Source: Patescibacteria group bacterium
Lineage (GTDB): Bacteria > Patescibacteriota > Patescibacteriia > UBA1558 > UBA10009
DNA: 64,000 nt
NCBI GenBank assembly: GCA_018818425.1
Contig: JAHISB010000002.1
Location: forward strand, 2,819 to 66,818
Direction of reading: 5' to 3'
Translations under genes and position numbers: made by a program
Notes under the pieces: model-generated
What the model was told of the DNA's origin: nothing
Seen by the model: only the letters and a program-made list of their open reading frames with translations
Databases searched by the model: none
Shown here: piece by piece, positions 7,809 through 63,742 of the stretch
How positions within the stretch are numbered: position 1 is the first letter of the stretch
Layout of the letters: each line of letters opens with the position of its first letter

Positions 7809-9158
7809 ATGGCTAGTCAATCCAAGAACAAAAAAATTTGGCTGGTGACTGTGGATATGGGTTATGGTCATCAGCGGGCTACTTATCCTTTAAAGCACTT
7901 AGCTTACCGGGGATTAATCAGCGCCAATAACTATCAGGGTATTCCGTCTAAAGACAGGAAAGTTTGGCACGAACAGCGGAAATTTTACGAAGCGGTCTGC
8001 CGGTTTAAAAAAGTTCCGCTGGTCGGCAATTTAGCTTTTGAAGTTTTTGATCTTTTTCAGAGGATCCCTGAATTTTATCCCAAAAGAGATCTTTCGGGCA
8101 AAAGCATCCAGGTAATTTCTTCATTTAGATTAATTAAAGAAAAAAGCTTAGGCGAGCATTTAATTAATTTATTAAAAAAGAGGCCTCAATATCCATTGCT
8201 GACTTCATTTTTTTTAACTGCCTTTATGGCAGAAATTTTTAATTATCCCGGCGAAATTTATTGCATTATTTGCGATGCCGATATCAGCCGGGCCTGGGTT
8301 TCGGCCCTGCCTAAAAACAGCAAAATTAAATATTTTGCCCCCTGCCAGCGAGTGGTGGAAAGACTAAAACTTTACGGCGTGGCCGAAGACAGAATATTTT
8401 TAACCGGCTTTCCTCTGCCCAAAGAAAATATTGGCTCGGAACGGCTGCCCGTTCTTAAACAGGATTTAAAAAACAGGTTGGTTAATTTAGACCCCCAACG
8501 TTTATATTTGTCTAAGTATAAAGATACCCTTTGCAAGAATTTGTCTATTAAAAACTTTCCTAAAAAAGCTAATCATCCTTTAACCATAACTTTTGCGGTA
8601 GGCGGCGCCGGCGCTCAAAGAGAAATTGGCGCCCAGATTATTAAAGGTTTAAGTCAGGTGATTATTAAAAAACAAATAAGAATCAATCTCATTGCCGGCG
8701 TTCATCGCGATGTTAATAAATATTTTAAAGAGCAGATTCAAAAATTAAAGCTCCAAAGCCATTTAAATAAAGAAATCAGGATTTTATTCACTCAAAGTAA
8801 AATGGAATATTTTCAAAAGTTTAATGAGTGGCTAAGGACAACGGATATTTTATGGACCAAGCCGTCGGAACTTTCTTTTTACAGCGGTTTAGGCCTGCCT
8901 ATTGTGATGTCGCCGCCGATTGGCTCTCAAGAAGATTTTAATCGTAAATATTTAATTAATTTGGGCGCCGGCTTAGACCAGGAAGACCTAAAATATGTAG
9001 ATGAGTGGCTTTTTGATTGGATAAATTCCGGCCGCCTAGCCGAAGCTGCGGCCCAAGGTTTTTTGGAAGCCCCAAAGCTGGGAACGTTTAACATCGAAAA
9101 AATTTTGACTAAACGGACCATTAAAACCCGGGGAGTCAAGACGATTTCGCCGTATTAG
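7809..9158 (+). CDS. GT-B glycosyltransferase, MGDG synthase/UgtP (GT28)-like
   Basis: Track ORF begins at TTG 7737, overlapping the previous gene. In-frame ATG at 7809 gives MASQSKNKKIWLVTVDMGYGHQRA, the G-rich N-terminal motif of the MGDG-synthase family. C-terminal GT-B half (GLGLPIVMSPPIGSQEDFNRKYL). Confidence 0.5.
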   Translation: MASQSKNKKIWLVTVDMGYGHQRATYPLKHLAYRGLISANNYQGIPSKDRKVWHEQRKFYEAVCRFKKVPLVGNLAFEVFDLFQRIPEFYPKRDLSGKSIQVISSFRLIKEKSLGEHLINLLKKRPQYPLLTSFFLTAFMAEIFNYPGEIYCIICDADISRAWVSALPKNSKIKYFAPCQRVVERLKLYGVAEDRIFLTGFPLPKENIGSERLPVLKQDLKNRLVNLDPQRLYLSKYKDTLCKNLSIKNFPKKANHPLTITFAVGGAGAQREIGAQIIKGLSQVIIKKQIRINLIAGVHRDVNKYFKEQIQKLKLQSHLNKEIRILFTQSKMEYFQKFNEWLRTTDILWTKPSELSFYSGLGLPIVMSPPIGSQEDFNRKYLINLGAGLDQEDLKYVDEWLFDWINSGRLAEAAAQGFLEAPKLGTFNIEKILTKRTIKTRGVKTISPY

Positions 9159-9164
9159 TCGTGC

Positions 9165-9205
9165 CAGCCAAATGCTGGTCAGCCTCTGGCTGATATCGTG
9201 TTTAG
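9165..9205. repeat. copy of the GC-rich tandem-hairpin element family (CCAGCC-N-GCTGG TCAGCC-TCT-GGCTGA)
   Basis: gccagccaaatgctggtcagcctctggctgatatc aligns with copies at 34640-34672 and 35529-35591. Confidence 0.55.
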
Positions 9206-9235
9206 ATTAATAGTAAAGTTACAAGATATAAGATT

Positions 9236-10150
9236 ATGTGGTTTATAATCGCCATTATTTCAGTTTTTTTATTTGCTGTAACTGCTGTAGTGGATAAGTT
9301 TTTACTTTCTAAATCTCCATTAATCCCTATCAGTTACGCTTTCGTCATCTCTTTACTGGGCGCTTTAGCTTCAGTAGTTTTGGTGATTTTTGAGAAAGGA
9401 TTTTATTTTCCAGCCCAGCATTTTTTGGCTTTATTCATAGGCGGCGCTGGTTTTTATTTTGCTGTTTATTTTATGTATTTGGCAGTAGTCAAAAACGAAG
9501 TTTCTAGAGTCAACCCGATGATCAACAGTCTGGCGCCGGTAGTTATATATTTTTTAACTATGGTTTTAGCTGTCGAGCTAATCAGCGCCAGAAAATTATT
9601 AGGGGCAGCCGTAGTGATTAGCGGCGGCTATTTACTTTCGCAAGTTGGGTTAAAGAAAGCTCAACTCCATAAATCAGCTTTAGTTTTGATAATTTTAGCT
9701 GCCATTATGTTCGGAATATCGAATACTTTTAGTAAAATGGCCTATGATCAGCTGCCGTTTTTAACGTCCTTTATTTGGATTAGATGGCTGACTTTACTGA
9801 CTGCCTTAGTTTTTACTACTTTGATAGGCGGCTGGTCTAAAATATCTTTTAAAAGGAAAAAACAGCGTCAGACTCCAGCTAAAAAAAAGAATCCTTGGCC
9901 AGCTTTGGTTATTGGCCAGGTCAGCGGGGGCGCGGCCGTTATTTTGTTTCAGTATGCTATCAAACTCGGCAGCGTTACCATTGTCACAGCCCTCCAGGGT
10001 TTGCAATATTTTTTCTTGCTCCTGCTTACTATTCTTCTTTCCAAAAAATTTCCCCAGATTTTACAAGAAGCTATTGGCCCTGCCGTAATTAAAAAAAAGT
10101 TATTATATTGTTTAATTTTAGCTATTGGAGTAATTTTATTGCTGGTTTAA
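9236..10150 (+). CDS. DMT/EamA-like permease (10-TM membrane protein)
   Basis: 304 aa. Two ~5-TM halves separated by a basic loop (KRKKQRQTPAKKKN), typical of drug/metabolite transporter architecture. Confidence 0.45.
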   Translation: MWFIIAIISVFLFAVTAVVDKFLLSKSPLIPISYAFVISLLGALASVVLVIFEKGFYFPAQHFLALFIGGAGFYFAVYFMYLAVVKNEVSRVNPMINSLAPVVIYFLTMVLAVELISARKLLGAAVVISGGYLLSQVGLKKAQLHKSALVLIILAAIMFGISNTFSKMAYDQLPFLTSFIWIRWLTLLTALVFTTLIGGWSKISFKRKKQRQTPAKKKNPWPALVIGQVSGGAAVILFQYAIKLGSVTIVTALQGLQYFFLLLLTILLSKKFPQILQEAIGPAVIKKKLLYCLILAIGVILLLV

Positions 10151-20334: not shown

Positions 20335-20715
20335 ATGAAAAGCGATTTTATACAATCTTATAGGGATCTTATTGTATGGCAGAAGTCGATGGACCTAGTT
20401 AAAGTCATTTACGAATTGACTAAGCAATTTCCGGAAACAGAGAAATTTGGGCTAATATCCCAAATGAGAAGAGCGGCAGTTTCAATTCCTTCTAATATTG
20501 CCGAAGGGTTCAGAAGAGGCGCTAGAAAGGATTACCGTTACTTTCTGATAATAGCATTTGGCTCTGGCGCGGAATTAGAAACCCAAATAGAAATCTCTAA
20601 AAGGCTGGAATTTTGCAATAATTTTAACTATTCAAAAGTCGATGGTTTACTAGGGGAAATAATGAAAATATTGAATGTATTTATAAAAAAGCTAGGCAAT
20701 AGTACTACAACCTAG
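20335..20715 (+). CDS. four-helix-bundle protein (23S rRNA intervening-sequence protein family, TIGR02436-like)
   Basis: 126 aa. YRDLIVWQKSMDLVKVIYELTKQFPETEKFGLISQMRRAAVSIPSNIAEG...GSGAELETQIEIS closely matches the family consensus. Confidence 0.8.
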   Translation: MKSDFIQSYRDLIVWQKSMDLVKVIYELTKQFPETEKFGLISQMRRAAVSIPSNIAEGFRRGARKDYRYFLIIAFGSGAELETQIEISKRLEFCNNFNYSKVDGLLGEIMKILNVFIKKLGNSTTT

Positions 20716-20754: not shown

Positions 20755-21081
20755 ATGGACAACAAAGGACAATTCAGTTTAAAGCTAATCCAAAAATGCC
20801 CGGTCTGCAATCACGATTATCTGGAGGGCAAAATTCAGATTCTTGAAGAAGCCGATGTCAGCTTTTTGGCTTATTTGACTTGCGGCCATTGCCATTCCAG
20901 CATTATCGTCAGGGTTATGACTCTGCCACACGGCATGGTGGGCAATGCCATACTTACCGACCTTTCCAGCGATGAAGTGGGAAAATTCTCCGAAGCCGAG
21001 GTTTTAAACAGCAACGAAGTTTTACAAGTTTATCAGGAGCTTTGGCAAAGCGAGGGGTTTTTGGAGAAGATGAAACAATAA
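20755..21081 (+). CDS. zinc-ribbon-containing hypothetical protein
   Basis: 108 aa with CPVC...CGHC pairs. Confidence 0.45.
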   Translation: MDNKGQFSLKLIQKCPVCNHDYLEGKIQILEEADVSFLAYLTCGHCHSSIIVRVMTLPHGMVGNAILTDLSSDEVGKFSEAEVLNSNEVLQVYQELWQSEGFLEKMKQ

Positions 21082-21163
21082 TCACAGATAGTTCACGGAT
21101 GAATCACTGATGACTCACGGATATAATTATTAACATTTTATTATTAATTTAAAGATAAATATT

Positions 21164-31116: not shown

Positions 31117-31433
31117 GATTTTCACCCTTACCTTTCTGATATTTTTTTCTTTTATTTTTTTTGACTTTGTTATTAATCCTAGTAAAAAATGGAGAGTCAA
31201 TTTAGAGTTTTTGGTCTTCGGTCATCAATCATCAATTTTCACTAATAGCACAAACTAACAATAGACGAACACAAATATTCACAAACTTAACACAAACTAA
31301 CGTAGTAAATACAGCATTAACTACCCAGTTTTTACCAGGATTGTTTGTCAAAGTCCGTAAATTGACCCCTTACTGTAGCAAATTTTGGCGATTTTGTCAA
31401 CCCAAAAATAAAAAATGGCTGAAGTTAGCCAAA

Positions 31434-31735
31434 TATCACCGATCTATCACAGATGAATCACCGATCTATCACGGATAAATCACTGATAAATCACCGATCT
31501 ATCACGGATAAATCACTGATAAATCACAGATCTATCACGGATAAATCACCGATAAATCACCGATCTATCACCGATAAATCACGGATGAATCACTGATTGA
31601 TAATATAAAGTATCGGTGATTCATCCGTGGATATCCGTGATAGATCCGTGTATCTCCGTGATTTATCGGTGAGCCATCTGTGCGCTATCTGTCGATAGAC
31701 CCCGAGCTTATCGAGGAGTGAACTATCGGTGATTT
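31434..31735. repeat. ~300 bp imperfect palindrome built from ~25 tandem 10-bp units (ATCAC[C/G/T/A]GAT[C/A]TA)
   Basis: ~16 direct units (31434-31598), AT-rich centre (tgataatataaagta), then ~9 reverse-complement units (31610-31700). Extends into the last codons of dusB. Same TCACNGAT words at 17490-17570 and 21082-21125. Confidence 0.8.
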
Positions 31736-32696
31736 ATCCGTGAATTTCAGCCAAGATTTTTTCAATATCCTTAATACTTTCCACTCTTACCAACTCTGTT
31801 CTTAAATCAGAAGCATTTGGCAAACCTTTAACGTACCAGAGCAGGTGTTTGCGCAGTTCAATAAGGCCATGTTCACCTTTTGTTTTAAGAGCTAGTTGAG
31901 CATGCTTTAAGATAATTTGTTTTTTTTCTGGCCAACTGGGTTCTTCAAATTTTCCGGTTTTTAAATAGTCTTTGATTTGCTGAAAAAGCCAAGGTCTGCC
32001 ATAAGTTCCTCTGGCAAGGCCCAGGCCGTCAGCTTTGGTTTTTTTTAATAATTCTTTAGCGTCTTCAGGGGAGTTGACTCCGCCGTTGGCCAGGATTGTG
32101 CCTTTAAAGTATTTTCCGGCCTCTTTAATCATTTGATAGTCAATTTCGCCGCTAAAGCCCTGTTCATAAGAACGGCCGTGGATCATTACAGCGCTAATCG
32201 GCAGGTCAGCCATTTTTTTTAGAAAATCAATAACCGTTACTTTTTTGCCGATTTTTGATTTAATGGAAGTTCTGACTTTAACTGAAACCGGAAGCTTGGT
32301 GTTATCAATCGTCTGTTTTATTAGCTGATAGCATAAATTTAAATCTCTTATCAAAGTTACGCCGCCGCCGTGGCCGACAACTTTGCGGGCCGGACAGCCA
32401 AAGTTAATGTCAATGCCGCCGGCTCCCGACTTTTCGACAATCCGGGCAGCTTCACCGAATTTAGCCGGGTCCTTGCCGAAAAGTTGAACCACTAACGGTT
32501 GTTCAGCTTTTTCAAATTTTAACATCTCCAAAGTTTTTTTGCCTTCAAAAAAAAGCCCGTCCGCCGAAGTCATTTCCGAATAAACAACATCGGCGCCGTA
32601 TAAACGGCACAGCTGCCGAAAAGCCGAGTCGGTAATGCCGGCCATGGGCGCCAAGGCCAGAATCGGTTTATTTATTTGTTGCCAAAAGTTGGGCAT
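31734..32696 (-). CDS. dusB: tRNA-dihydrouridine synthase (DusB-like)
   Basis: 320 aa. LAPMAGITDSAFR, TIM-barrel FMN motifs (GIDINFGCPARKVVGHGGG), C-terminal helical domain. Confidence 0.85.
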   Translation of the reverse strand: MPNFWQQINKPILALAPMAGITDSAFRQLCRLYGADVVYSEMTSADGLFFEGKKTLEMLKFEKAEQPLVVQLFGKDPAKFGEAARIVEKSGAGGIDINFGCPARKVVGHGGGVTLIRDLNLCYQLIKQTIDNTKLPVSVKVRTSIKSKIGKKVTVIDFLKKMADLPISAVMIHGRSYEQGFSGEIDYQMIKEAGKYFKGTILANGGVNSPEDAKELLKKTKADGLGLARGTYGRPWLFQQIKDYLKTGKFEEPSWPEKKQIILKHAQLALKTKGEHGLIELRKHLLWYVKGLPNASDLRTELVRVESIKDIEKILAEIHG

Positions 32697-32699
32697 TGA

Positions 32700-32810
32700 G
32701 TTGGGTGATTAGGTTAATTAGGTGATTAGGTGATTAGGTCTTAGGTCTTTAGTCTTCAATCTTTAGTCCTCAGTCATCAATCCTCAATCCTTAGTCTTCA
32801 GTCTTTAAAA
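32700..32810. repeat. degenerate tandem word repeats (ggtgattag; tcaatcc / tcttcag)
   Basis: The tcaatcc word also recurs at 34620-34680, 38200-38260 and 44810-44870. Confidence 0.5.
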
Positions 32811-35244: not shown

Positions 35245-35528
35245 TAGTCTAAAAGTTTTCTTTGAATTTTTTGTGTAGAGTATGAACAATGGGATAATCG
35301 TTGTATTAACAATACCGGTTAGAGAAATTCCAAATCCAAAATCACAAATAACAAATAAATTCCAAATTCCAAAAATAAAATATCACTGATCATCACTAAG
35401 ATATGCTGACCATTTGCTGATACACGCTCGCCTTGAGCGAAGTCGAGAGGCGAAGCAGGCTGATAATCCGCGGATATCAGCGTACCTCGGCGCATCTCGG
35501 CGGTTATTGGTGAATAATTCTCAATCCT

Positions 35529-35591
35529 CCCAGCCAGCCTTCGGCCGTGAGCTCAGGCCGAACGGAGGCTGGTCGGCCTCTGGCCGAAATC
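35529..35591. repeat. full-length GC-rich tandem-hairpin element (copy B)
   Basis: cccagccagccttcggccgtgagctcaggccgaacggaggctggtcggcctctggccgaaatc. 35529-35574 is the exact reverse complement of 54130-54175. Confidence 0.85.
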
Positions 35592-38169: not shown

Positions 38170-38262
38170 AAACCAATCCATAAAATCAATTTTCAATTTT
38201 CAGTGATTTTTCAATTTCTAATCCTCAATCATAAATCCTCAATCCTTAATCCTTAATTAGTT
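38170..38262. repeat. intergenic word repeats (caattttca; tcaatcc / taatcct)
   Basis: tcaattttcaattttcagtgatttttcaatttctaatcctcaatcataaatcctcaatccttaatcctta. Confidence 0.45.
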
Positions 38263-38787
38263 ATGCTCTATATATCAACTATCCTGGTTTTTATAATTTT
38301 TATTATTTTATTGAACTTCGCCTATGCCGGCGTTTCCGCGGCGCCATGGGTGCCCTCCCGGAAAAAAGATTATCAAAGAGTTTTAGAACTGGCCGGGATT
38401 AAAAATGGAGACACTGTCTACGACCTGGGCAGCGGCGACGGGCGCTGGCTTTTTTATTTTGCTAAGCATTCCCCGGCCCAAGAGATCAGGGGCTATGAAA
38501 TTTCTTTAATCATGTATTTAATTTGCTGGATAAAAAAGTTGTTCAGCGGATATCCACAGGTAAAATTATCCTTTGGCAATTTTTATAAATTTAATTTAAG
38601 TAAAGCTGATGTGCTGATTTGTTTTTTAACTCCCCGGGCCATGAAAAAATTATTGCCTAAATTAAAAAAAGAAATGAAGCCCGGCTCCAGATTAGTTTCC
38701 TACGCTTTCACCATGCCTAATGTGGAAGCTGAAAAAGTAAGCAAGGTTAGCCAAAAAAGCGTGTCTATTTATCTTTATAGATTTTAG
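38263..38787 (+). CDS. small class I SAM-dependent methyltransferase with N-terminal TM
   Basis: 174 aa. Motif I VYDLGSGDGRWLFYFAKH. Confidence 0.5.
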   Translation: MLYISTILVFIIFIILLNFAYAGVSAAPWVPSRKKDYQRVLELAGIKNGDTVYDLGSGDGRWLFYFAKHSPAQEIRGYEISLIMYLICWIKKLFSGYPQVKLSFGNFYKFNLSKADVLICFLTPRAMKKLLPKLKKEMKPGSRLVSYAFTMPNVEAEKVSKVSQKSVSIYLYRF

Positions 38788-39608: not shown

Positions 39609-39657
39609 CTCCGCGTTGGCCGTTCGGCCGCGAGCTCACGGCCGAGTGGTCGGGATG
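39609..39657. repeat. diverged copy of the GC-rich tandem-hairpin element (copy D orientation)
   Basis: ccgcgttggccgttcggccgcgagctcacggccgagtggtcggg shares ttcggccg(c/t)gagctca(c/g)ggccga with copies B and D. Confidence 0.6.
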
Positions 39658-39708
39658 ACATTTTAAGCGAAATTTTTTATTTGCCAATTTATCAATCAAT
39701 CGTTATAA

Positions 39709-39836
39709 TATACCCAATTGCTTTAATAAAATAGAAAATACTCCAAAGCGATGCGTTAATATTAATACTAATATTAGATAAAATAATTCAAATTATTCAA
39801 TTAGCAAAATCGGAATTATTAAAGCGAAGGAGTATA
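39709..39836. repeat. ~130 bp AT-rich dispersed element, copy 1 (directly upstream of dnaX)
   Basis: Near-identical to 62841-63006. Ends AAAGCGAAGGAGTATA (SD-like AAGGAG) 9 nt before the dnaX ATG. Internal inverted 7-mers atactcc / ggagtat. Confidence 0.85.
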
Positions 39837-39844
39837 CATTCACT

Positions 39845-40939
39845 ATGTCAACCACTTTATACCGCAAATATCGTCCGCAAACCTTTGCCGAGGTCATCAA
39901 TCAGAACCATGTTAAAGTTACTTTGCGGAACGAGGTTGCTTCCGGCAAACTAGCCCATGCTTATCTTTTTTCGGGCCCAAGGGGCATTGGTAAAACCACT
40001 ATGGCCAGAATTTTGGCCAAGAGCGTCAACTGCCCCAATCAAAAAAAAGCCGAGCCCTGCAATAAGTGCCAGTCGTGCCTAGAAATCACCCAGGGCAACT
40101 GCTTGGATTTAATAGAAATTGACGCCGCTTCCAACCGGGGCATTAACGAAATCAGAGAACTGCGCGAGCACGTTAAGTATGCTCCGAGCAAGAATAAATA
40201 TAAAGTTTTTATCATCGACGAAGTCCATATGCTGACCGCCGAAGCTTTTAACGCCCTGTTAAAAACTTTAGAAGAGCCGCCCGGCCATGTTATTTTTATT
40301 CTGGCCACCACCGAACTTCATCAGCTGCCGGAAACAATTATTTCCCGCTGCCAGCGCTTTGACTTTAGAAAAATTTCTTTTAAAGAAATCGCCGGCCATT
40401 TAGAAATGATTGCGGCCGCCGAAAAAGTCAAGGTGGCTAAAAAGGTTATAGAAACTATCGCCCGCACCAGCGAAGGTTATGTCAGGGATGCTATTTCGCT
40501 CTTGGGCCAGATTTTGGCTTTGGGCGAAAAAGAAATCAGCGAAGCAGAGGCCTCGTTGGTTTTGCCCCGTTCGGACATCAATCAAATCATCATTTTTATC
40601 AAACAGCTTTTAGAACATCAATCGGCCGCAAGCATCCGCTTAATCAACCAGTATCTTAATGACGGCGGAGAGCTGGAAAATTTTACCAAGGAGGCCATCG
40701 AAGTTTTAAGAAAAATTTTGGTAGCTAAAGTAACTGACGGCTGGCAGGAGCTGGCCTGGGAAGTTCCCGAGGAGGAATCAAAATCATTGATGGTTTTGTT
40801 GGAGAAAGTTGAAGCTGATTATTTAGTTCAAGTAATCGAAATTTTGCTGGAGGCCTTGACCCGGCTAAAGCGCGCTGATATAATCCAGCTTCCGCTGGAA
40901 ATGGCCATCGTTAAAATCAGCGAATTAAAGAGTGAATAA
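39845..40939 (+). CDS. dnaX: DNA polymerase III subunit gamma/tau (short form)
   Basis: 364 aa. YRPQTFAEVINQ, Walker A GPRGIGKTT, zinc module CNKCQSC, SRC motif. Confidence 0.85.
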   Translation: MSTTLYRKYRPQTFAEVINQNHVKVTLRNEVASGKLAHAYLFSGPRGIGKTTMARILAKSVNCPNQKKAEPCNKCQSCLEITQGNCLDLIEIDAASNRGINEIRELREHVKYAPSKNKYKVFIIDEVHMLTAEAFNALLKTLEEPPGHVIFILATTELHQLPETIISRCQRFDFRKISFKEIAGHLEMIAAAEKVKVAKKVIETIARTSEGYVRDAISLLGQILALGEKEISEAEASLVLPRSDINQIIIFIKQLLEHQSAASIRLINQYLNDGGELENFTKEAIEVLRKILVAKVTDGWQELAWEVPEEESKSLMVLLEKVEADYLVQVIEILLEALTRLKRADIIQLPLEMAIVKISELKSE

Positions 40940-42939: not shown

Positions 42940-43070
42940 GGTAGCCAAAGGGCTATTTTTTTAGTATAATGTTAGATATGGGAACATGTGAACATGGGAA
43001 CATTAGAACACTTGCTCCCATGCTCCCATGTTCTAATGCTTTAATGCTTTAATGCTTTAATGCTTTAATT
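42940..43070. repeat. intergenic word palindrome (gaacatggga / tcccatgttc) plus tandem aatgcttta x4
   Basis: Word family shared with 63030-63135. Confidence 0.55.
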
Positions 43071-44051
43071 ATGAAACACAATATCATCACCATCGGCGGC
43101 TCAACAGAAGACATCATGTTTTATACCAAAGAAGCCGTGTTGGTCAGAAACAACAAGGATATTCTTAGGCAGCAGTTGCTGGGTTTTGAATTTGGCGCCA
43201 AGATCGTCGGCGAGAAAGTTTTTTTTACTTATGGCGGCGGCGGTTCTAATACGGCTGTCAACTTTTCTAAACTGGGCTTAAAAACCGGCGTTATCACAGC
43301 AATCGGCGATGACGACAACGGCCAGAGAATCATCAAAAATTTCAAAAATAATAAGGTTAGCGCTGCTAATATTCAGACAATCAAAAAAGTCCCCAGCGGG
43401 CTTTCTTTTATTGTCAATTTTTCCGGCACCACCGAGCATGTTATTTTCACTTATCGTTCGGCCAATAATCAGTTGCTAATTTCAGAAAAGAGTTTAAGCA
43501 AAGCCAAAGCAGACTGGTTTTACCTTGCTTCGCTGTCAGGGCCAAAGTGGCCGGCTAATCTGAAAAATATTTTTGAGCATTCCGCCAAAAAGAAAATCAA
43601 GATTGGCTGGAACCCCGGCGCTAGCCAGTTAGCCAAGGGCTATTCATCATTAAAAAAATATCTTCAACAAACAGAAGTTTTAATTTTAAATAAGGACGAA
43701 GCCATTGAACTGGTTTTAAGCTCCGGCTATAAAACGCAAAACATCAATCAACTGTTAAAATATTTAAAACTGATGGGCCCGGCAGTTGTTGCCATAACCC
43801 AAGGCGCTAAAGGAGCTGCGGTTTGCTCCGGCAATCAAATCTGTTCGGAAAAAGCTTTACCAATCCAAGGTATTAATACCACGGGCGCCGGCGATGCCTT
43901 TGGTTCCAGCTTGGTTGCCGGTTTGATTATTTATAAAGATTTAGCCAAAGCTCTAAAACTGGCCATCCATCAGAGTAATTATGTTATCCGAGAAATTGGA
44001 GCGCAGAAAGGGCTGCTTTCGATTGCTCAATTAAAAAAGAATGTTGAATAA
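43071..44051 (+). CDS. PfkB-family carbohydrate kinase
   Basis: 326 aa. C-terminal NTTGAGDAFGSSLVAGL motif. Confidence 0.7.
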   Translation: MKHNIITIGGSTEDIMFYTKEAVLVRNNKDILRQQLLGFEFGAKIVGEKVFFTYGGGGSNTAVNFSKLGLKTGVITAIGDDDNGQRIIKNFKNNKVSAANIQTIKKVPSGLSFIVNFSGTTEHVIFTYRSANNQLLISEKSLSKAKADWFYLASLSGPKWPANLKNIFEHSAKKKIKIGWNPGASQLAKGYSSLKKYLQQTEVLILNKDEAIELVLSSGYKTQNINQLLKYLKLMGPAVVAITQGAKGAAVCSGNQICSEKALPIQGINTTGAGDAFGSSLVAGLIIYKDLAKALKLAIHQSNYVIREIGAQKGLLSIAQLKKNVE

Positions 44052-44107
44052 GTCGGATAAGTTTACTTATAATTCATACGACTTATTCAACTTATACAAC
44101 TAAGAAC

Positions 44108-44677
44108 ATGCCCAAAATTCCCGTAGAAATCTCTGCCCGTCATATACATCTTTCTCAAAAAGATTTAGATGCGCTTTTTGGGAAGGGCTTTAAGTTGAAA
44201 AAAATTAAGGATTTATCACAGCCAGGCGAGTTTGCCAGCAGCCAGACAGTTGAACTTATCGGCCCAAAATCTTCATATAAAAAAGTCAGAGTTATAGGTC
44301 CGGTCAGAAAAAATACTCAAGTGGAAATTACCGCTACTGATTGCCGAGTTTTGGGCATCAACGCCCCTGTCAGATTATCGGGCAATGTCAAAGGTTCAGC
44401 TCAAGCAACTATTAAAGGTCCTAAAGCCAGAATCAAATTAAAGCAGGGAGTTATTATTGCCCAACGCCACCTTCATTTATCAGCAGAGGAAGCAAAAAAA
44501 CTAAAAGTCAGAAATAATCAAAAAGTTTCAGTCAGAATTAAAGGCGAAAGAAGCATTACTTTTCATGAAGTTGTAGTCAGAGCCGGCCGGCAGTATAAAA
44601 AGGCCTGTCATCTAGATACTGATGAAGGTAATAGCGCGGGCATGAAGACATGCGAGTATGGAGAGCTAGTTAAATAA
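44108..44677 (+). CDS. PduL/EutD-type phosphate acyltransferase (phosphotransacetylase-like)
   Basis: 189 aa with two internal repeats, each carrying an xxRH(I/L)HLS motif (SARHIHLS; AQRHLHLS). Confidence 0.6.
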   Translation: MPKIPVEISARHIHLSQKDLDALFGKGFKLKKIKDLSQPGEFASSQTVELIGPKSSYKKVRVIGPVRKNTQVEITATDCRVLGINAPVRLSGNVKGSAQATIKGPKARIKLKQGVIIAQRHLHLSAEEAKKLKVRNNQKVSVRIKGERSITFHEVVVRAGRQYKKACHLDTDEGNSAGMKTCEYGELVK

Positions 44678-44689
44678 TAAGGTACAAGA

Positions 44690-44878
44690 AACAACCAACC
44701 CCTCGATAAACTCGGGGCCTATCGGCAAGAAACAAACAAATTCCAATCCCCGATTATCCCCGATTCAATCGGGGAGGGGACAAATTACAAATAACAAATA
44801 AATCCCAAAATACAAATCCTCAATCCTCAATCCTTAAGCTTCAATCCTCAATCCTTTAAGCTTTGAGTTTTAAGATTT
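44690..44878. repeat. intergenic region of G/C-clamped mini-hairpins and tcaatcc word repeats
   Basis: cccctcgataaactcgggg and ccccgattcaatcgggg hairpins, then caaataa and tcaatcctcaatcc words. Confidence 0.5.
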
Positions 44879-50202: not shown

Positions 50203-51480
50203 ATGTTCAAGAGAATCAAAACTTTAATCATTTTGGCATTAAGTTTGATTCTTTTTATTTTTGTTTGCTCGCCGGCTCAGTCAGCGGATTATGATTATGA
50301 TTTAGCAATCGGTCCGACCGACATCTATTTTTCCGAAGAAATTTTAATAACCGGAGAGCAGGTGAGGATTTACGCCAAAGTTCATAATGTTGGCAATTAT
50401 GATATGTTGGGCTACGTTTCTTTTTTTCGGGGCATTGAATTAATCGGCAATTCCCAGGTGGTTTCGGTATTGCCCAATAGCAGCGACGATGTTTTTGTCG
50501 ATTTTACGGTGCCGGAAGATTCATTCAATATTCAGGCAAAAATTCAGGGCACCGACCCCCAGGACCAGAACACCGGCAATAACGAAACTCAAACAGCTCT
50601 TTTTTATCCCGAAGTAGATACCGACGGCGACGGTATTGTCGACAGCATAGATGAAGACGATGATAACGACGGCTTAACTGACAGCCAGGAAGCGGGCATG
50701 TGCACCGATCCTTTAGATGCCGACACCGATAACGACGGAGTTAACGATAATAATGATAACTTTCCCTGCGATCCGGCGGAAACCTTGGATACTGACGGCG
50801 ACGGCATTGGCGATAATGCCGATGTTGACGATGACAACGACGGCTGGTCCGATAGCCAGGAGTTAACGGCCGGCACCGATCCTTTAAGAAAAGACACCGA
50901 TGGCGACGGCGTTAACGACCCTCAAGATGCTTATCCTTTAGACCCTGATAAATGGGAAGAGGAAGCGCCTCAAAATATTTTTCAGCCGCCGCAGCTGCCT
51001 TCATTGTCTAATCAAAACACTAATCAAGCAACTGGCGAAACCACTGCCAATCAGAATGTTAATCAGGGAGATTCAGAAAATACCAGTCAAATTATTCAAA
51101 TTCTTGATGATATAGAAATGAAGCTGGGCAGTTCCAATCAATCAGACGAGCTTGCCGCTCAAGACAAAATTCAGCCATTAAATAAGTTAGGCGAAACGAT
51201 AGAAAAAGTAACCGGCGTTTCAGGACCATTTTTTAGATTAAATAATTGGTTCTTTTGGCTGATATTAGCCATTTTTATTGTTTTGATAACCATTGCAGTT
51301 ATTTTGATAATAAATAAGAAAAGGGCCGGCTCTGGTTTAAAAATGGATTCGTTAAAAAGTAAGACTTCAAAAAAAGTAGAAATTCAAAAAATAACGCCAT
51401 CACAGCCGTCAGCTAAGCCAAAACTGCCGCCCAATGTGGTTAATCTTAAAGAGATAATGAAGAAAAAGAATAAACAATAA
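50203..51480 (+). CDS. cell-surface protein with thrombospondin type-3-like Ca-binding repeats and C-terminal TM anchor
   Basis: Signal peptide. Repeated DTDGDG..D..D.DDDNDG motifs. C-terminal TM plus basic tail. Confidence 0.65.
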   Translation: MFKRIKTLIILALSLILFIFVCSPAQSADYDYDLAIGPTDIYFSEEILITGEQVRIYAKVHNVGNYDMLGYVSFFRGIELIGNSQVVSVLPNSSDDVFVDFTVPEDSFNIQAKIQGTDPQDQNTGNNETQTALFYPEVDTDGDGIVDSIDEDDDNDGLTDSQEAGMCTDPLDADTDNDGVNDNNDNFPCDPAETLDTDGDGIGDNADVDDDNDGWSDSQELTAGTDPLRKDTDGDGVNDPQDAYPLDPDKWEEEAPQNIFQPPQLPSLSNQNTNQATGETTANQNVNQGDSENTSQIIQILDDIEMKLGSSNQSDELAAQDKIQPLNKLGETIEKVTGVSGPFFRLNNWFFWLILAIFIVLITIAVILIINKKRAGSGLKMDSLKSKTSKKVEIQKITPSQPSAKPKLPPNVVNLKEIMKKKNKQ

Positions 51481-51525
51481 TCAATGAACAGTGATCAATA
51501 AACAATAATCAATGAACAATGATTT

Positions 51526-51580
51526 TCTTTGTCATTTCGGGCGGAATGAAATGGAGCCCAAGAAATCTCTTAAAATGCCT
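51526..51580. repeat. TTTGTCATTTCG(G/A)GCGGAATGAAATGGAG element copy
   Basis: Near-identical over ~50 nt to 58627-58678. Confidence 0.7.
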
Positions 51581-54077: not shown

Positions 54078-54176
54078 ACCGAAGACTTCGGCCATGAGCC
54101 ATAGGCCATCATCCTTTGGCTGAAAGGCCGACCAGCCTCCGTTCGGCCTGAGCTCACGGCCGAAGGCTGGCTGGGA
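54078..54176. repeat. GC-rich tandem-hairpin element, copy D (inverted relative to copy B)
   Basis: 54130-54175 is the exact reverse complement of 35529-35574. The flanks share the ggctggtcggcct core. Confidence 0.85.
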
Positions 54177-54241
54177 AAACTGAAGACTAATAAGATTCAT
54201 AATTGACGAAAAGCTTTGTAAACTGTTATAATAAATTCACT

Positions 54242-55174
54242 ATGGAAGAAAATTGGGGCATGATTGGACATCAAAAAATAGTCCAGTTTTTAGATAAAAG
54301 CATTAAAGTTAATCGTTTAGCCCACGCTTATTTGTTTTACGGCCAGGGTTCGCTGGGCAAAACCACGCTGGCCGAAAAATTTGCCGAAACCCTTTTAAAA
54401 ACACCCGAGGCGGTAGTTACCGATCTTTATAAAGTAGGGCCCCTGGAGGGCAAAAAGAATATTGCCATAGAGCAAGTCAGGGAATGGCGCCTTAAGCTGC
54501 AGATGAAGTCCTTGCATCAGGGTTATAAAGTGGGCATAATTTACGAAGCGGAAAAGCTGAATTTGGAATCAGCCAACGCCCTGCTCAAAACCATCGAGGA
54601 GCCCACGCCGCAGACCGTAATCATTTTAATTACCTCTGCCTGGGATAAAATTCTGCCGACCATTATCTCCCGGAGCCAGCTTATAAGGTTTTCACCGGTC
54701 ATCAACCAAGAAATTATTAACTGTCTTTCGGTTAGAGAATTTCCGGCTGCTGAAATTGAAAAGATGGTTAATTTTGTTGGCGGTTATCCAGGGAAAATTA
54801 TCGCTTATTTGGAAAGTCCGGAACTTTTTACAGAATTTCAGAAATTAAATAAAGAGGTTATTAAAATTTTTAACAGCAATTTGGCTGAAAGGTTTTTAAC
54901 CATAGATAAATTTCTTTCTTCGGCCAAAGAGTTTAATAAAAAAGTTATTTTGACCTATGAATTTTTAAAGCATTTCAGAATTATTTTCAGGGATATGCTT
55001 TTGAAGAATTATAATTTGCCTAATCTTTTGCAGAATAAATCCTTAAAAATAGAGAAAAATTATTCTGTCAACGAGCTTTTAACCATCGGCCTTAAAATGG
55101 AAGAAGCCGAAAACCAGCTTAAAAGCAATGTCCAGCCCCGGCTGATTTTAGAAAATTTAATGTTACATATATGA
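54242..55174 (+). CDS. holB: DNA polymerase III subunit delta' (HolB)
   Basis: Track start is TTG 54203; ATG 54242 (10 nt after TATAAT 54226-54231) gives MEENWGMIGHQKIV...AHAYLFYGQGSLGKTTLA. Confidence 0.7.
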   Translation: MEENWGMIGHQKIVQFLDKSIKVNRLAHAYLFYGQGSLGKTTLAEKFAETLLKTPEAVVTDLYKVGPLEGKKNIAIEQVREWRLKLQMKSLHQGYKVGIIYEAEKLNLESANALLKTIEEPTPQTVIILITSAWDKILPTIISRSQLIRFSPVINQEIINCLSVREFPAAEIEKMVNFVGGYPGKIIAYLESPELFTEFQKLNKEVIKIFNSNLAERFLTIDKFLSSAKEFNKKVILTYEFLKHFRIIFRDMLLKNYNLPNLLQNKSLKIEKNYSVNELLTIGLKMEEAENQLKSNVQPRLILENLMLHI

Positions 55175-56251: not shown

Positions 56252-56390
56252 TGAATAAGTTTGATAAGTCATATAAGTTTAATGAGTTTAATAAGTTGAG
56301 TAAGTTCGATAAACTACGGAAGTAAACTTATTCAACTTATTCAACATATTCAACTTATTCAACGTATTCAACTTATTCAACATTTTAAAT
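56252..56390. repeat. intergenic palindrome of ~14 nine-bp units (gaataagtt ... aacttattc)
   Basis: Seven forward units, centre acggaagta, seven reverse-complement units. Confidence 0.75.
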
Positions 56391-58604: not shown

Positions 58605-58626
58605 AAATCCATTGAGAGTTCATTAC

Positions 58627-58678
58627 TCTTTGTCATTTCGAGCGGAATGAAATGGAGTCGAGAAATCCCTTAAGAAAG
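58627..58678. repeat. TTTGTCATTTCGAGCGGAATGAAATGGAG element upstream of the GIY-YIG gene
   Basis: Matches 51526-51580. Preceded by atccattgagagttcattac, related to 53557-53576. Confidence 0.7.
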
Positions 58679-58686: not shown

Positions 58687-58989
58687 ATGGTAAAAAGAGA
58701 ATATAACTTTTATGTTTATATCATGGCCAGCGCATCAGGCACATTATATGTGGGCATGACTAATGATTTAGAACGTCGGGTAGATGAGCATAAACGAGGA
58801 TTAATTGAATGCTTTACTAAAAAGTATTCATGTCATAAATTAGTCTATTATGAACATTTTACGGATGTTTATGAAGCTATTGAAAGAGAAAAACAGATAA
58901 AAAGATGGCGCAGAGAAAAAAAACAGAACCTTATCAGAACTATTAACCCTATCTGGAAAGATTTAGGTTTAGAATCAGAATGGGAATAA
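58687..58989 (+). CDS. GIY-YIG nuclease family protein (small, standalone)
   Basis: 100 aa. YNFYVYIMASASGTLYVGMTNDLERRVDEHKRG... (GIY...YVG motif, Arg, Glu). Confidence 0.75.
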   Translation: MVKREYNFYVYIMASASGTLYVGMTNDLERRVDEHKRGLIECFTKKYSCHKLVYYEHFTDVYEAIEREKQIKRWRREKKQNLIRTINPIWKDLGLESEWE

Positions 58990-59023
58990 TCATTTTTCTT
59001 TTTATTTCATTATCCTTTGTCAT

Positions 59024-59136
59024 TTCGACTGGAGCGGAGCGGAACGGAGAAATCCCTTGATTAGAAGAAGTAAGGGATCTCTCCGCTCACCTTCATTCAC
59101 TTCGCTCATTACGGTTCGGTCGAGATGACAAAGAGG
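59024..59136. repeat. TGTCATTTCGAC-family nested hairpin downstream of the GIY-YIG gene
   Basis: cctttgtcatttcgac / gtcgagatgacaaagagg outer stem. ggagaaatccctt / aagggatctctcc inner stem. Confidence 0.7.
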
Positions 59137-62010: not shown

Positions 62011-62811
62011 ATGAGTAAAAGAAGAAAAAATACCATAATTATTGTTTTGTTAGCTTTAGTTATTTTTATAGGTTACTATGCCGGCTTGGTTAATTTATTA
62101 GAACAAGGTTTGTTAAAATTATTTTCACCGGTTCAGCAGCAGCTGTATAACTGGAGCCTGGTTCTTAAAAAAATCAATAATCTGGGAGAAATTTTAGAAG
62201 AAAACACCTATCTTAAAAGCGAACTGTCTAAACTGGTTGTTGATTACGTTAAATTGTCCAATATTGAATCGGAAAATGAATATTTAAAAAAAGAGCTAGA
62301 TTACTTAAAAGAAAATAAGTATAATTATCAAATAGCCGGTGTTATCGGCGGCCAGCCTTACCAAGGGCAGATTTTGTTTATTAATAAAGGCAGTCAAGAT
62401 GGTTTACTGGAGAATTTAGCGGTTACGGCCGGCCAGGGGATTATTATTGGCAAGGTGGTTTCAGTTTTGCCCCGCCGCTCCCAGGTTCAGCTGTTAACCG
62501 ACCCCGATAGCCGTTTGGCCGCTTCTTTTAGCCAACAAACCGGCACTCAAGGACTGGTCAGAGGCAAGGCAGGCAGCAGTTTAATTATGGAATTTGTTCC
62601 TCAAAATTTAGAGATAAAAGAAGGGGATTTAGTGATTACCTCCGGCCTTGAGGAAAATATTCCCCGCGGACTGCTGGTGGGCAGAGTGACAGAGGTAAAT
62701 AATTTAGCGGGTCAGATTTTTCAGCAGGTCAATATTTTAACGCCATTTAATTATCAGAATTTTTCAACTCTTACTATAATCATGCCGGCTTCCGATGATA
62801 TTAATGAGTGA
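62011..62811 (+). CDS. mreC: rod shape-determining protein MreC
   Basis: 266 aa. N-terminal TM, coiled coil, C-terminal GDLVITSGLEENIPRGLLVGRV. Confidence 0.8.
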   Translation: MSKRRKNTIIIVLLALVIFIGYYAGLVNLLEQGLLKLFSPVQQQLYNWSLVLKKINNLGEILEENTYLKSELSKLVVDYVKLSNIESENEYLKKELDYLKENKYNYQIAGVIGGQPYQGQILFINKGSQDGLLENLAVTAGQGIIIGKVVSVLPRRSQVQLLTDPDSRLAASFSQQTGTQGLVRGKAGSSLIMEFVPQNLEIKEGDLVITSGLEENIPRGLLVGRVTEVNNLAGQIFQQVNILTPFNYQNFSTLTIIMPASDDINE

Positions 62812-62840
62812 TTATTATTCAAGCTATACCCCTTCGCTTT

Positions 62841-63006
62841 TATACCCAATTACTTTAATAAAATAGAAAATACTCCGACCTGTCCCGCGAAGTTTTAACG
62901 TAGCGGGAAGCGATGCGTTAATATTGATACTAATATTAGATAAAATAATTCAATAATTCAAATTATTCAATTAGCAAAATCGGAATTATTAAAGCGAAGG
63001 AGTATA
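62841..63006. repeat. ~130 bp AT-rich dispersed element, copy 2 (between mreC and mreD)
   Basis: Matches 39709-39836, with a 34-nt hairpin insertion (cccgcgaagttttaacgtagcggg) and an 8-nt duplication. Followed by the gaacatgggagca word palindrome (63030-63135). Confidence 0.85.
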
Positions 63007-63189
63007 TAACTCCGAAGCGGCGGAGCTTAGTATGAGAACATGGGAGCATGAGAACATGGGAGCACTAGAACATGGGAGCATTAGAACATTGGAGCACTTG
63101 CTCTTATGCTCCCATGTTCCAATGTTCTCATGCTAAACTTCGGGGCATTATACGGAATTATTTAAGCAATTGAGTATAAATTAAAATGA

Positions 63190-63261
63190 ATCCCGCACCA
63201 CAGGAAACCACTGGCGTAAGTCCATAATCAAGTTGTGCTGGGTAAGCCTGTGGTGCGGGAT
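63190..63261. other. 15-bp perfect inverted repeat (ATCCCGCACCACAGG / CCTGTGGTGCGGGAT) overlapping the mreD start codon
   Basis: Arms at 63190-63204 and 63247-63261, 42-nt loop. The ATG of mreD (63260) lies in the 3' arm. Confidence 0.7.
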
Positions 63262-63742
63262 GAATTTTAAAAAAGCGGTCTTCATTATTATTTTAACTGC
63301 GGTTATTTTTTTTATTCAACAGAGTTTTTTAGTCAAGCTGCTACCCGTTAATTTGTTGCTTTTATTGATAATTTGGCTAAGTTTTAGCCGAAGGCCGGAG
63401 AGCTGGCTGGCGGCTTTAACAGCCGGTTTGCTTTTAGATTTTTATTCGGGTATTTTAGGCCCGGCTTTGATAAGTTATAGTTTAGTTAATTTTTTAATTA
63501 TTTATTTGGCTAAGCACATTTCTTTAGAAAGCTTCAGCCACTTTTTGTTGGTTTCTTTTGCCGGCTTGTCGGCTTTTTTTATCAGTTATTATTTGTTTTT
63601 ATATATTTTTGCGGAATGGCTGACTAATAAAGAGATCAGCTGGATTTGGAAAATGTCATGGTGGAGCTTTATTAAAATTATTATCAGCCATCAGTTATTA
63701 CTGCTTATGGGTTATTTAGTTAAACCGAAAGTTAACCGATAA
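63260..63742 (+). CDS. mreD: rod shape-determining protein MreD
   Basis: Track start is TTG 63233; ATG at 63260. ~5 TM. LLLDFYSGILGPALISY resembles the MreD conserved motif. Position is after mreC. Confidence 0.55.
   Translation: MNFKKAVFIIILTAVIFFIQQSFLVKLLPVNLLLLLIIWLSFSRRPESWLAALTAGLLLDFYSGILGPALISYSLVNFLIIYLAKHISLESFSHFLLVSFAGLSAFFISYYLFLYIFAEWLTNKEISWIWKMSWWSFIKIIISHQLLLLMGYLVKPKVNR

What the first reader, a model, noticed from the sequence alone, without database searches (positions are those of the whole stretch)
39709..39836. ~130-bp AT-rich element repeated upstream of dnaX and inserted between mreC and mreD
39709-39836 and 62841-63006 are near-identical apart from a 34-nt hairpin insertion and an 8-nt duplication in copy 2. 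Both end AAAGCGAAGGAGTATA, giving a Shine-Dalgarno sequence 9 nt before the dnaX ATG. Both contain the inverted heptamers ATACTCC...GGAGTAT. Copy 2 lies inside a 420-bp spacer that splits the normally contiguous mreC-mreD pair. It is followed by a palindrome of GAACATGGGAGCA words. This is either a portable promoter/leader module, a MITE, or a small RNA gene.
Basis: seen in the sequence. Interest (0 to 1): 0.6.

Follow-up and report, generated by a model that had tools for sequence, protein, structure and literature searches.

The report
Small mobile DNA repeat (MITE) in Patescibacteria
The repeated ~130-bp AT-rich element is a small non-coding transposable element (a MITE) that has inserted just upstream of dnaX and between mreC and mreD in an uncultured Patescibacteria genome; this is an ordinary kind of element, though this family does not appear to have been described.

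Summary
Copies at 39709-39836 and 62841-63006 are 125/128 identical, apart from a 30-nt hairpin insertion and an 8-nt duplication in copy 2.

They belong to a family with at least 12 copies in the same metagenome and relatives in other CPR genomes. Members are 52-238 bp and non-coding. They have 26-bp imperfect terminal inverted repeats, TATACYC...ATAATTCCG / CGGAATTAT.AAAGCGAAGGRGTATA, and are flanked by TA.

Two empty-site reconstructions support a 2-bp TA target duplication. One is a nested insertion. The other is the near-identical holB promoter.

Related genomes have no element upstream of dnaX, and their mreC-mreD spacers are 19-37 nt, against 448 nt here.

The "GAACATGGGAGCA palindrome" is the core of a second family member (62825-63178). 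Copy 2 inserted into that member's terminal repeat.

An IS30-family insertion sequence first looked like the parent. It is in fact itself inserted into a family member, with a TTA duplication. The mobilising transposase remains unknown.

At dnaX the element sits between a near-consensus promoter and the ATG of what was probably a leaderless gene. Its end supplies AAGGAG 12 nt upstream of the ATG, in a genome that rarely uses Shine-Dalgarno sequences. Whether that matters is an inference.

Verdict: a MITE, a new member of a known kind.

The parts
39681..39709 (+). Promoter-like site TTGCCA-17-TATAAT, probably the native dnaX promoter. Its last T is the first base of the TA flank of the element.
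   Evidence: 11 of 12 matches. Relatives carry an equivalent promoter 20-26 nt before the dnaX ATG. holB has TATAAT followed by 9 nt and then ATG.
39709..39836 (+). MITE variant A, copy 1 (128 bp including TA at both ends; element proper 39711-39834). R-type terminal repeat at 39709-39734, L-type terminal repeat at 39811-39836.
   Evidence: 97.7% identical to copies at other loci.
39827..39832 (+). AAGGAG inside the L-type terminal repeat, 12 nt upstream of the dnaX ATG. Possibly an incidental Shine-Dalgarno sequence.
   Evidence: Sequence reading. Only about 3 of 54 genes in this contig have a strict SD, and this is one of them.
39845..40939 (+). dnaX (DNA polymerase III gamma/tau).
   Evidence: Pfam; homologues.
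62011..62811 (+). mreC.
   Evidence: Pfam PF04085.
62825..63178 (.). MITE variant C (354 bp as found; about 188 bp without the nested element). Its L-type terminal repeat is split into 62825-62842 and 63007-63014. Its R-type terminal repeat is at 63153-63178.
   Evidence: An intact homologue lies at L007 6419-6656.
62841..63006 (+). MITE variant A, copy 2 (166 bp including TA at 62841-62842 and 63005-63006), nested inside the L-type terminal repeat of MITE-C.
   Evidence: Removing the element plus one TA restores a gapless match to intact MITE-C.
62877..62906 (+). 30-nt hairpin insertion (stem CCCGC/GCGGG) that marks a sub-lineage of variant A. It is also present in the copy at L009.
62944..62959 (+). 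Tandem duplication of AATAATTC, private to copy 2.
63029..63140 (.). Palindromic array of 8-nt GAACATGG/GAGCATGA-type words, forming the core of MITE-C. A terminal-repeat-less relative lies at 42974-43064.
   Evidence: D2, I9-I11. The fold of 62825-63180 gives -105 kcal/mol, z = -6.4.
63186..63265 (+). 68-nt hairpin (63192-63259; 13-bp stem CCCGCACCACAGG/CCTGTGGTGCGGG) flanked by the direct repeat ATGAAT. The second ATGAAT is the start of mreD. Single copy, unexplained.
63260..63742 (+). mreD.
   Evidence: TIGR03426 at E=2.5e-6, below cut-off. 54% identity over the full length to the gene between mreC and PBP2 in a relative.

Best explanation
The element is a miniature inverted-repeat transposable element (MITE): a non-coding, non-autonomous DNA transposon moved in trans by a transposase encoded elsewhere. 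It inserts at TA dinucleotides and duplicates the TA.

Its constant parts are two 26-bp imperfect terminal inverted repeats. The R-type end is TATACYCAATTGCTT.AATAA.... The L-type end, read inward, is TATACYCCTTCGCTTT.ATAATTCCG. There is also a sub-terminal motif, AT.C.CCGAAGC, next to the R end. The interior varies and defines variants A, B and C and a 52-bp deletion form.

Copy 1 landed at the TA directly after the -10 box of the dnaX promoter. That turned a gene with about 9 nt between the -10 box and the ATG (probably leaderless) into one with a roughly 130-nt leader made of the element.

Copy 2 landed inside the terminal repeat of a variant-C element that had itself inserted 7 nt upstream of mreD. 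Together they inflate a roughly 22-nt mreC-mreD spacer to 448 nt.

Shown here: family membership, terminal repeats, the TA duplication, the nesting, and absence from relatives.

Inferred: the mobilising enzyme is an IS630/Tc1-mariner-like (or other TA-duplicating) DDE transposase; dnaX is now transcribed through the element from its old promoter; and the AAGGAG in the L-type end helps its translation.
For: 1. Copy number and sharp ends. A 21-mer from the L end finds 7 more copies on 6 contigs of one metagenome. A variant-B copy lies on the window's own contig just beyond the window (L003 14763-14889). All full copies start TATAC and end GTATA, with unrelated flanks.

2. Terminal inverted repeats match at 18-20 of 26 positions in variants A, B and C (reading).

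3. TA duplication, first test. MITE-C is intact in L007 (CGCTTTTATAATTCC). In the window it reads CGCTTT-TA[TACCC..GGAGTA]TA-TAACTCC. Only removing the element plus one TA gives a gapless match.

4. TA duplication, second test. Removing copy 1 plus one TA gives CGTTATAATACATTCACTATG. The paralogous holB upstream region reads TGTTATAATAAATTCACTATG, with the same spacing.

5. Lineage-specific insertions. DnaX orthologues at 76-82% identity have no element upstream. mreC-mreD spacers in relatives are 19-37 nt.

6. Sub-lineages have moved. The hairpin-bearing form sits at two unrelated loci, and so does the hairpin-less form, at 97.7-98.7% identity.

7. Non-coding and AT-rich: 70-77% A+T, with no stop-free stretch longer than 36 codons.

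8. Relatives of 98-140 bp with the same ends occur in two Ca. Peribacteria MAGs and another Patescibacteria MAG.

9. The properties match the published definition of bacterial MITEs: under 200 bp, terminal inverted repeats, 5'-TA-3' at the termini, A+T-rich, target-site duplication (PMC2229807).
Against: No autonomous parent with the same terminal repeats was found in any locus or collection scanned, so mobilisation in trans is inferred. The transposase family is a guess from the TA duplication alone.

Both empty-site tests use paralogous sequences. No orthologous empty site from a closely related strain was available.

It is not proven that the Ga0180007 contigs belong to the same genome as the window. 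What is shown is that the sample is the same or equivalent, G+C is similar, and variants A, B and C all occur on the window's own contig.

The functional claims about dnaX rest on consensus matches. RNA folds neither clearly expose nor clearly sequester the SD: probability unpaired is about 0.33-0.35.
Confidence: 0.85

Rival explanations
1. The element is a selected, portable promoter/5' leader/Shine-Dalgarno cassette. Its purpose is to drive or tune the gene downstream, with mobility secondary.
For: The L end carries AAGGAG 12 nt before the dnaX ATG, in a genome where strict SDs are rare. Most A/B copies point their L end in the direction of the flanking genes: roughly 8-9 of 10 by ORF inspection. 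A weak internal promoter-like match, TTAATA-17-TAAAAT, occurs in both window copies.
Against: Only the dnaX copy is at SD distance. Other copies end 26-186 nt from the next start, or face a gene's 3' end. The GGAG varies in other genomes (GGTG, ATGAG, GGGG). The internal promoter match is 9 of 12, at chance level for this composition. The strong promoter lies in the flank. Relatives express dnaX without the element.
Confidence: 0.1
2. The element is an internal-deletion derivative of the IS30-family insertion sequence found in the same metagenome, and is mobilised by that transposase.
For: In L005 an IS30-family transposase gene (NF033563, 298.6 bits; HTH_38 plus rve) is bracketed by sequences identical to the two halves of variant B.
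Against: Ten other copies of that IS end at GTTTCTTTCCAGAATCTAACGCAACA / TGTTGCGTTAAATGCTGGAAACCAAG and have unrelated flanks. In L005 the 1085-bp IS (8588-9672) interrupts an otherwise intact variant-B element, with a 3-bp TTA duplication (CTTTC-TTA-[IS]-TTA-ACTAAC against intact CTTTCTTAACTAAC). The IS terminal repeats have no similarity to the MITE's terminal repeats. The duplication lengths also differ: 3 bp against 2 bp.
Confidence: 0.02
3. The element is a small RNA gene or a structured cis-regulatory RNA (riboswitch or thermosensor) that has been duplicated.
For: The heptamers ATACTCC/GGAGTAT and the terminal repeats could pair and mask the SD.
Against: No Rfam family reaches its gathering score, and permissive hits have E of 0.8 or worse within the element. 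There is no terminator. The fold z-score is -1.9, with 11 of 200 shuffles folding as well. The interior differs completely between variants A, B and C while only the ends are kept, which is the opposite of what a functional RNA core would show. Copies occur in both orientations relative to neighbours and downstream of stop codons.
Confidence: 0.03
4. The two copies are an assembly artefact, from duplicated or collapsed contig ends.
For: None found.
Against: Both copies lie in the interior of a 91-kb contig, between unique and correctly ordered genes. They are identical in a second assembly. Short-read unitigs from another run end inside the repeat, as expected for a true repeat. More copies exist on other contigs.
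Confidence: 0.01

Closest known systems
Correia repeat-enclosed elements (CREE/NEMIS) of Neisseria
   Same: Both are about 100-155 bp and non-coding. Both have terminal inverted repeats of about 24-26 bp that begin TATA, and both duplicate a TA target. Both occur as size variants differing by an internal block, lie next to or within transcription units, and can alter expression of neighbouring genes through sequences at their ends. For both, the transposase is unidentified (PMC2229807; abstract of PMC2649163).
   Different: There is no sequence similarity, and the host phylum differs (Patescibacteria/CPR). No IHF site or RNase III processing was tested. The copy number seen here is small (at least 12), against hundreds for CREE.
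RUP (repeat unit of pneumococcus), mobilised by IS630-Spn1
   Same: Both are small (RUP is 107 bp), intergenic elements with terminal inverted repeats. Both insert at TA. Both are frequently found nested with other mobile elements.
   Different: RUP's terminal repeats match a known IS630-family element. Here no matching autonomous element was found, so the IS630 link is only an inference from the TA duplication.
IS30-family insertion sequence in the same metagenome (L005 8588-9672)
   Same: It co-occurs with the MITE family and is physically nested in one member.
   Different: Its terminal repeats are unrelated (GTTTCTTTCCAG...AACGCAACA). It makes a 3-bp TTA duplication and encodes its own transposase. 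It is a guest inside the MITE, not its parent.
ERIC/IRU and YPAL elements of enterobacteria
   Same: They are imperfect palindromes of about 127-170 bp, co-transcribed with flanking genes, and listed with target-site duplications (Table 1 of PMC2229807).
   Different: Their terminal repeats are much shorter (7 bp contiguous), their sequences are unrelated, and their hosts differ.

Membership tests
Bacterial MITE (as defined in PMC2229807) | Small size (under about 200-300 bp) and no protein-coding capacity | tested here: met
   Members are 52-238 bp. The longest stop-free stretch in the two variant-A copies is 34-36 codons, and no gene is called in them.
Bacterial MITE (as defined in PMC2229807) | Terminal inverted repeats | tested here: met
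   The 26-bp ends match at 18-20 of 26 positions in variants A, B and C and are conserved between copies.
Bacterial MITE (as defined in PMC2229807) | Target-site duplication (5'-TA-3' at the termini) | tested here: met
   Every full copy is flanked by TA...TA. Two paralogous empty-site reconstructions fit only a 2-bp TA duplication.
Bacterial MITE (as defined in PMC2229807) | Multiple dispersed copies at unrelated loci, and absence from the same sites in relatives | tested here: met
   At least 12 copies on at least 8 contigs. Absent upstream of dnaX and between mreC and mreD in relatives.
Bacterial MITE (as defined in PMC2229807) | Terminal repeats shared with an autonomous element that supplies the transposase | tested here: not met
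   No element with these ends and a transposase gene was found in the fetched loci, in GTDB representative genomes or in IMG/VR. The one JGI metagenome scan used the exact 21-mer from the L end; it returned seven short or fragmentary copies, one of which brackets the unrelated IS30-family element, and no autonomous element. Many accepted bacterial MITEs, such as Correia elements, also lack a known parent, so this feature is not strictly defining.
IS630/Tc1-mariner-derived MITE | TA target duplication | tested here: met
IS630/Tc1-mariner-derived MITE | Terminal repeats matching those of an IS630-family transposase-bearing element | not testable with these tools
IS30-family derivative | Ends identical to IS30-type terminal repeats, and a 2-3 bp duplication made by that transposase | tested here: not met
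   The IS ends, defined from 11 copies, are unrelated to the MITE ends. The IS is inserted within a MITE.
Rfam RNA families (sRNA or cis-regulatory) | Match to a curated covariance model at its gathering score | tested here: not met
   The only hit in the window is a tRNA. Permissive scans gave chance-level hits.

The most novel reading that the evidence does not exclude
These elements represent a family of TA-targeting MITEs spread across the Candidate Phyla Radiation and mobilised by a transposase that has not yet been recognised. In a genome that is SD-poor and largely leaderless, their L-type end (AAAGCGAAGGAGTATA) would have been co-opted to supply a Shine-Dalgarno site. That would rescue translation of an essential gene (dnaX) whose leaderless start was buried by the insertion. 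If so, it would be a natural example of a leaderless-to-SD-led switch caused by a mobile element.
Probability: 0.2. Interest if true: 0.5.

Novelty: new member of a known kind. Interest (0 to 1): 0.3.

Why it matters
The finding explains two odd intergenic regions next to essential replication and cell-shape genes as transposon insertions rather than new regulatory genes.

It documents an active-looking MITE family in Patescibacteria, with nested insertions, sub-lineages at 97-99% identity and an IS30 element landing inside one member. These organisms have small, streamlined genomes, and I found no paper describing MITEs in them in the held library.

Such repeats break metagenome assemblies, as the Logan unitigs that end inside it show.

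The dnaX case gives a testable example of how an insertion between a promoter and a probably leaderless start codon can be tolerated.

None of this changes what is known about how MITEs work.

Tried and rejected
1. IS30 parentage. I first concluded that variant B was IS right end plus IS left end. I rejected this after fetching ten more copies of the IS, which showed its true ends and showed that the L005 copy sits inside a MITE.

2. SRP RNA. This gene often lies upstream of dnaX in other bacteria (from my own knowledge). There is no Rfam SRP hit and the element is multi-copy.

3. Exact 21-mer scan of GTDB representative genomes: no hit. A degenerate end pattern gave 3 real and 2 chance hits and no autonomous element. 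The IMG/VR scan gave nothing.

4. Search for a transposase in the window and its contig. tblastn with the IS30 transposase found nothing. The precomputed Pfam calls list no transposase family across about 60 kb.

5. Target duplications of 3 or 4 bp, or none. Each leaves a 2-nt length discrepancy with intact L-type ends.

6. RNA folding of the dnaX leader to decide whether the SD is exposed. The result was inconclusive, with weak structures and a probability unpaired of about 0.33-0.35.

7. More copies of the 68-nt hairpin at the mreD start: none in the data held.

8. Literature searches for IS30-derived MITEs, MITEs in CPR/Patescibacteria, and leaderless or SD usage in Patescibacteria. Nothing relevant was found.

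Full report
**1. The observation**

Reading the window confirms two copies of an AT-rich element, at 39709-39836 and 62841-63006, on the same strand. Copy 2 differs from copy 1 in four ways:
- a 30-nt hairpin-forming insertion after ATACTCC;
- a tandem duplication of AATAATTC;
- three substitutions;
- otherwise the two are 125/128 identical.

The last 55 nt are identical. A 25-mer from that block occurs twice in the window, against none in 100 shuffles.

Pfam confirms dnaX, mreB and mreC. The ORF after the spacer is mreD, on three grounds: a weak TIGR03426 match, synteny with PBP2, and 54% full-length identity to the orthologue in a relative. That alignment fixes the mreD start at ATG 63260, so the mreC-mreD spacer is 448 nt.

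The copies are not an assembly artefact:
- The window matches a 91-kb ENA contig in which both copies are identical.
- Short unitigs from another run stop inside the repeat.

The organism is an uncultured Patescibacteria (CPR) bacterium. Its named DnaX relatives include Candidatus Komeilibacteria.

**2. The element is a family with defined ends**

A 21-mer from the 3' block has no match in GTDB representative genomes. It does find seven more copies, on six contigs of JGI metagenome Ga0180007. One of those contigs is also present in the ENA assembly that holds the window's contig. Another family member lies on the window's own contig, about 2.8 kb beyond the window end (L003 14763-14889).

Aligning the copies shows three variants:
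- **Variant A** (window type): 128 bp, or 158-166 bp with the hairpin insertion. There is also a 52-bp deletion form.
- **Variant B**: 127 bp.
- **Variant C**: about 238 bp, with a core made of a palindromic array of 8-nt GAACATGG-like words.

The interiors differ between variants. A and B are only 68% identical, and most of that identity is at the ends.

All variants share three features:
- an "R-type" end, TATACYCAATTGCTT.AATAA...;
- an "L-type" end, ...CGGAATTAT.AAAGCGAAGGRGTATA;
- a sub-terminal motif, AT.C.CCGAAGC, beside the R end.

The two ends are imperfect inverted repeats, matching at 18-20 of 26 positions.

The elements are 70-77% A+T and have no coding capacity.

A degenerate end pattern recovered 98-140-bp relatives with the same TATAC...GTATA ends in two Candidatus Peribacteria MAGs and in another Patescibacteria MAG. 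It also gave two chance hits inside coding DNA.

**3. Evidence of transposition and the target duplication**

*(a) Nested insertion.* The "palindrome" after copy 2 is the body of a variant-C element spanning 62825-63178. An intact homologue is at L007 6419-6656. In the window its L-type end reads TATACCCCTTCGCTTT-TA[TACCC...GGAGTA]TA-TAACTCCG. The intact copy reads TATACCCCTTCGCTTTTATAATTCCG. Removing copy 2 plus one TA restores a gapless alignment with one mismatch. Keeping no TA, or keeping both, leaves a 2-nt indel.

*(b) The dnaX site.* Removing copy 1 plus one TA gives CGTTATAATACATTCACTATG. The paralogous clamp-loader gene holB (ATG at 54242) is preceded by TGTTATAATAAATTCACTATG, with the same spacing.

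*(c) Relatives.* DnaX orthologues at 76-82% identity have no element. They have a near-consensus promoter 20-26 nt before the ATG and no Shine-Dalgarno sequence. mreC-mreD spacers in relatives are 19-37 nt. Removing MITE-C with its nested element, and the 68-nt hairpin, from the window predicts a 22-nt spacer.

*(d) Sub-lineages at different loci.* Both the hairpin-bearing and the hairpin-less forms of variant A occur at two unrelated loci each, at 97.7-98.7% identity. Both forms have therefore moved.

Together these results meet the published description of bacterial MITEs: under 200 bp, terminal inverted repeats, TA at the termini, A+T-rich, and a target-site duplication (PMC2229807).

**4. 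A wrong turn, corrected**

In L005 an IS30-family transposase gene (HTH_38 plus rve; NF033563 at 298.6 bits) is bracketed by the two halves of variant B. I first read variant B as an internal-deletion derivative of that IS.

Fetching ten more copies of the IS, whose transposase is 90% identical, showed its true ends. These are GTTTCTTTCCAGAATCTAACGCAACA... and ...TGTTGCGTTAAATGCTGGAAACCAAG, a 26-bp terminal repeat matching at 20 of 26 positions, with unrelated flanks.

In L005 the 1085-bp IS (8588-9672) sits inside an otherwise intact variant-B element, with a TTA duplication. The interrupted sequence is CTTTC-TTA-[IS]-TTA-ACTAAC, against CTTTCTTAACTAAC in the intact copy. The IS30 element is therefore a guest, not the parent.

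No autonomous element carrying the MITE ends was found in any locus or scan. No transposase family is listed among the genes of the window's contig. That the mobilising enzyme is a TA-duplicating DDE transposase, such as one of the IS630/Tc1-mariner type, is an inference from the duplication alone.

**5. Consequences for the neighbouring genes (inferred)**

An 11-of-12 promoter match, TTGCCA-17-TATAAT, ends exactly at the first base of copy 1. The reconstructed ancestral site has 9 nt between the -10 box and the ATG, as at holB.

In this contig only about 10 of 54 genes have even a loose SD-like tetramer, and about 3 have a strict one. At least seven genes have TATAAT within about 12 nt of the ATG. 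This suggests widespread leaderless or near-leaderless expression.

The insertion would then have converted dnaX into a gene with a leader of roughly 130 nt. The L-type end happens to place AAGGAG 12 nt before the ATG, which may sustain translation.

This is not a general property of the family, for two reasons:
- Other copies end 26-186 nt from the next start codon, or face a gene's 3' end.
- The GGAG is not conserved in other genomes.

RNA folds are weak and do not settle whether the SD is accessible.

Between mreC and mreD the composite insertion forms a very stable hairpin region, at -105 kcal/mol and z = -6.4. The mreBCD-PBP2 transcript would have to read through it. The effect is unknown.

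**6. Comparison with known elements, and novelty**

In architecture and behaviour the elements most resemble Correia/NEMIS elements of Neisseria and RUP of pneumococcus. The shared features are:
- similar size;
- terminal inverted repeats of similar length in Correia elements (about 24 bp; RUP's are shorter, 9 bp contiguous), beginning TATA in Correia elements (my recollection, not checked here);
- TA duplication;
- size variants with different cores;
- nesting with other mobile elements;
- for Correia elements, no known transposase.

There is no sequence relationship, and the host is a CPR bacterium. I found no paper in the held library describing MITEs in CPR/Patescibacteria, but that library is incomplete.

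The finding is a new member of a known kind. The promoter/leader idea survives only as a possible local side effect at dnaX. The small-RNA idea is unsupported.

Noticed in passing
window 63186-63265: A 68-nt hairpin (13-bp G+C-rich stem CCCGCACCACAGG/CCTGTGGTGCGGG with a 42-nt loop) sits immediately before the mreD ATG. It is flanked by the direct repeat ATGAAT, and the second ATGAAT forms the first two codons of mreD. It looks like another insertion with a 6-bp duplication that regenerated the start codon. No other copy was found in the data held.
   Followed up: partly
L005 8588-9672 (same as L027; same ENA assembly as the window): A 1085-bp IS30-family insertion sequence (329-aa transposase) is inserted in a variant-B MITE with a TTA duplication. 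Its 26-bp terminal repeats are GTTTCTTTCCAGAATCTAACGCAACA. Transposases at least 79% identical fill the 120 best hits listed, of 7,925 with E <= 1e-60, mostly on contigs of 1-2 kb, and the named ones come from Patescibacteria. The IS therefore appears very abundant in CPR.
   Followed up: yes
window-wide; for example 54225-54244, and upstream of the genes listed: The genome appears SD-poor. About 3 of 54 genes have a strict GGAG/GAGG. At least seven genes have an exact TATAAT within about 12 nt of the ATG, which suggests widespread leaderless or near-leaderless mRNAs.
   Followed up: partly
window 42974-43064: A palindromic array of the same 8-nt GAACATGG-type words as the MITE-C core, but without the terminal repeats. 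It lies directly upstream of a pfkB-family kinase gene (ATG 43071) and after a terminator-like hairpin.
   Followed up: partly
window 31412-31620 with inverted partners at 31655-31746; also 21058-21145: Long arrays of an 11-nt unit (ATCACCGATAA-like) form large imperfect palindromes in intergenic DNA. The window carries 33 nt (three units) more than the ENA contig of the same region, so array length differs between the two assemblies.
   Followed up: partly
window 56316-56389 and 44031-44108; 32734-32810, 38204-38265, 44798-44860; 51469-51523: Further short-period intergenic tandem arrays recur at several loci, some as inverted partners of each other. They include 9-nt AACTTATTC units, 7-nt TCAATCC-like units and 14-nt units. 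Their function is unknown.
   Followed up: no
window 35521-35579, 54125-54183 (inverted, 95%), 39610-39665; L006 9317-9351: A G+C-rich, REP-like palindromic repeat (GGCCGAACGG...GAGCTCA...CCGTTCGGCC) recurs upstream of several genes, including dnaX and holB. It is a second, unrelated repeat family.
   Followed up: no
window 63049-63081: Four single-base differences between the window and the ENA contig all fall within the octamer palindrome of MITE-C. This may be population heterogeneity or assembly ambiguity within the repeat.
   Followed up: partly
window 58619-58671, 59006-59058, 51518-51570: A repeated ~53-nt sequence (TTTGTCATTTCGAGCGGAATGAAATGGAG...) flanks a small GIY-YIG-domain ORF (58687-58989) and a neighbouring ~99-aa ORF. 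It may be another selfish-element family.
   Followed up: no
window 20335-20715: A 126-aa ORF has Pfam hits to 23S_rRNA_IVP/bAvd, the four-helix-bundle family that includes accessory proteins of diversity-generating retroelements. No reverse transcriptase was seen nearby in the annotated stretch.
   Followed up: no
L014 2170-2200 and L011 1850-1885 (dnaX upstream in relatives): In relatives the sequence just after the dnaX -10 box reads TATAATATACTCGTT... or TATAATATATTCGC.... This loosely resembles the MITE's L-type end (TATACTCCTTCGC). It could be chance, a preferred target, or an old remnant of a terminal repeat.
   Followed up: no
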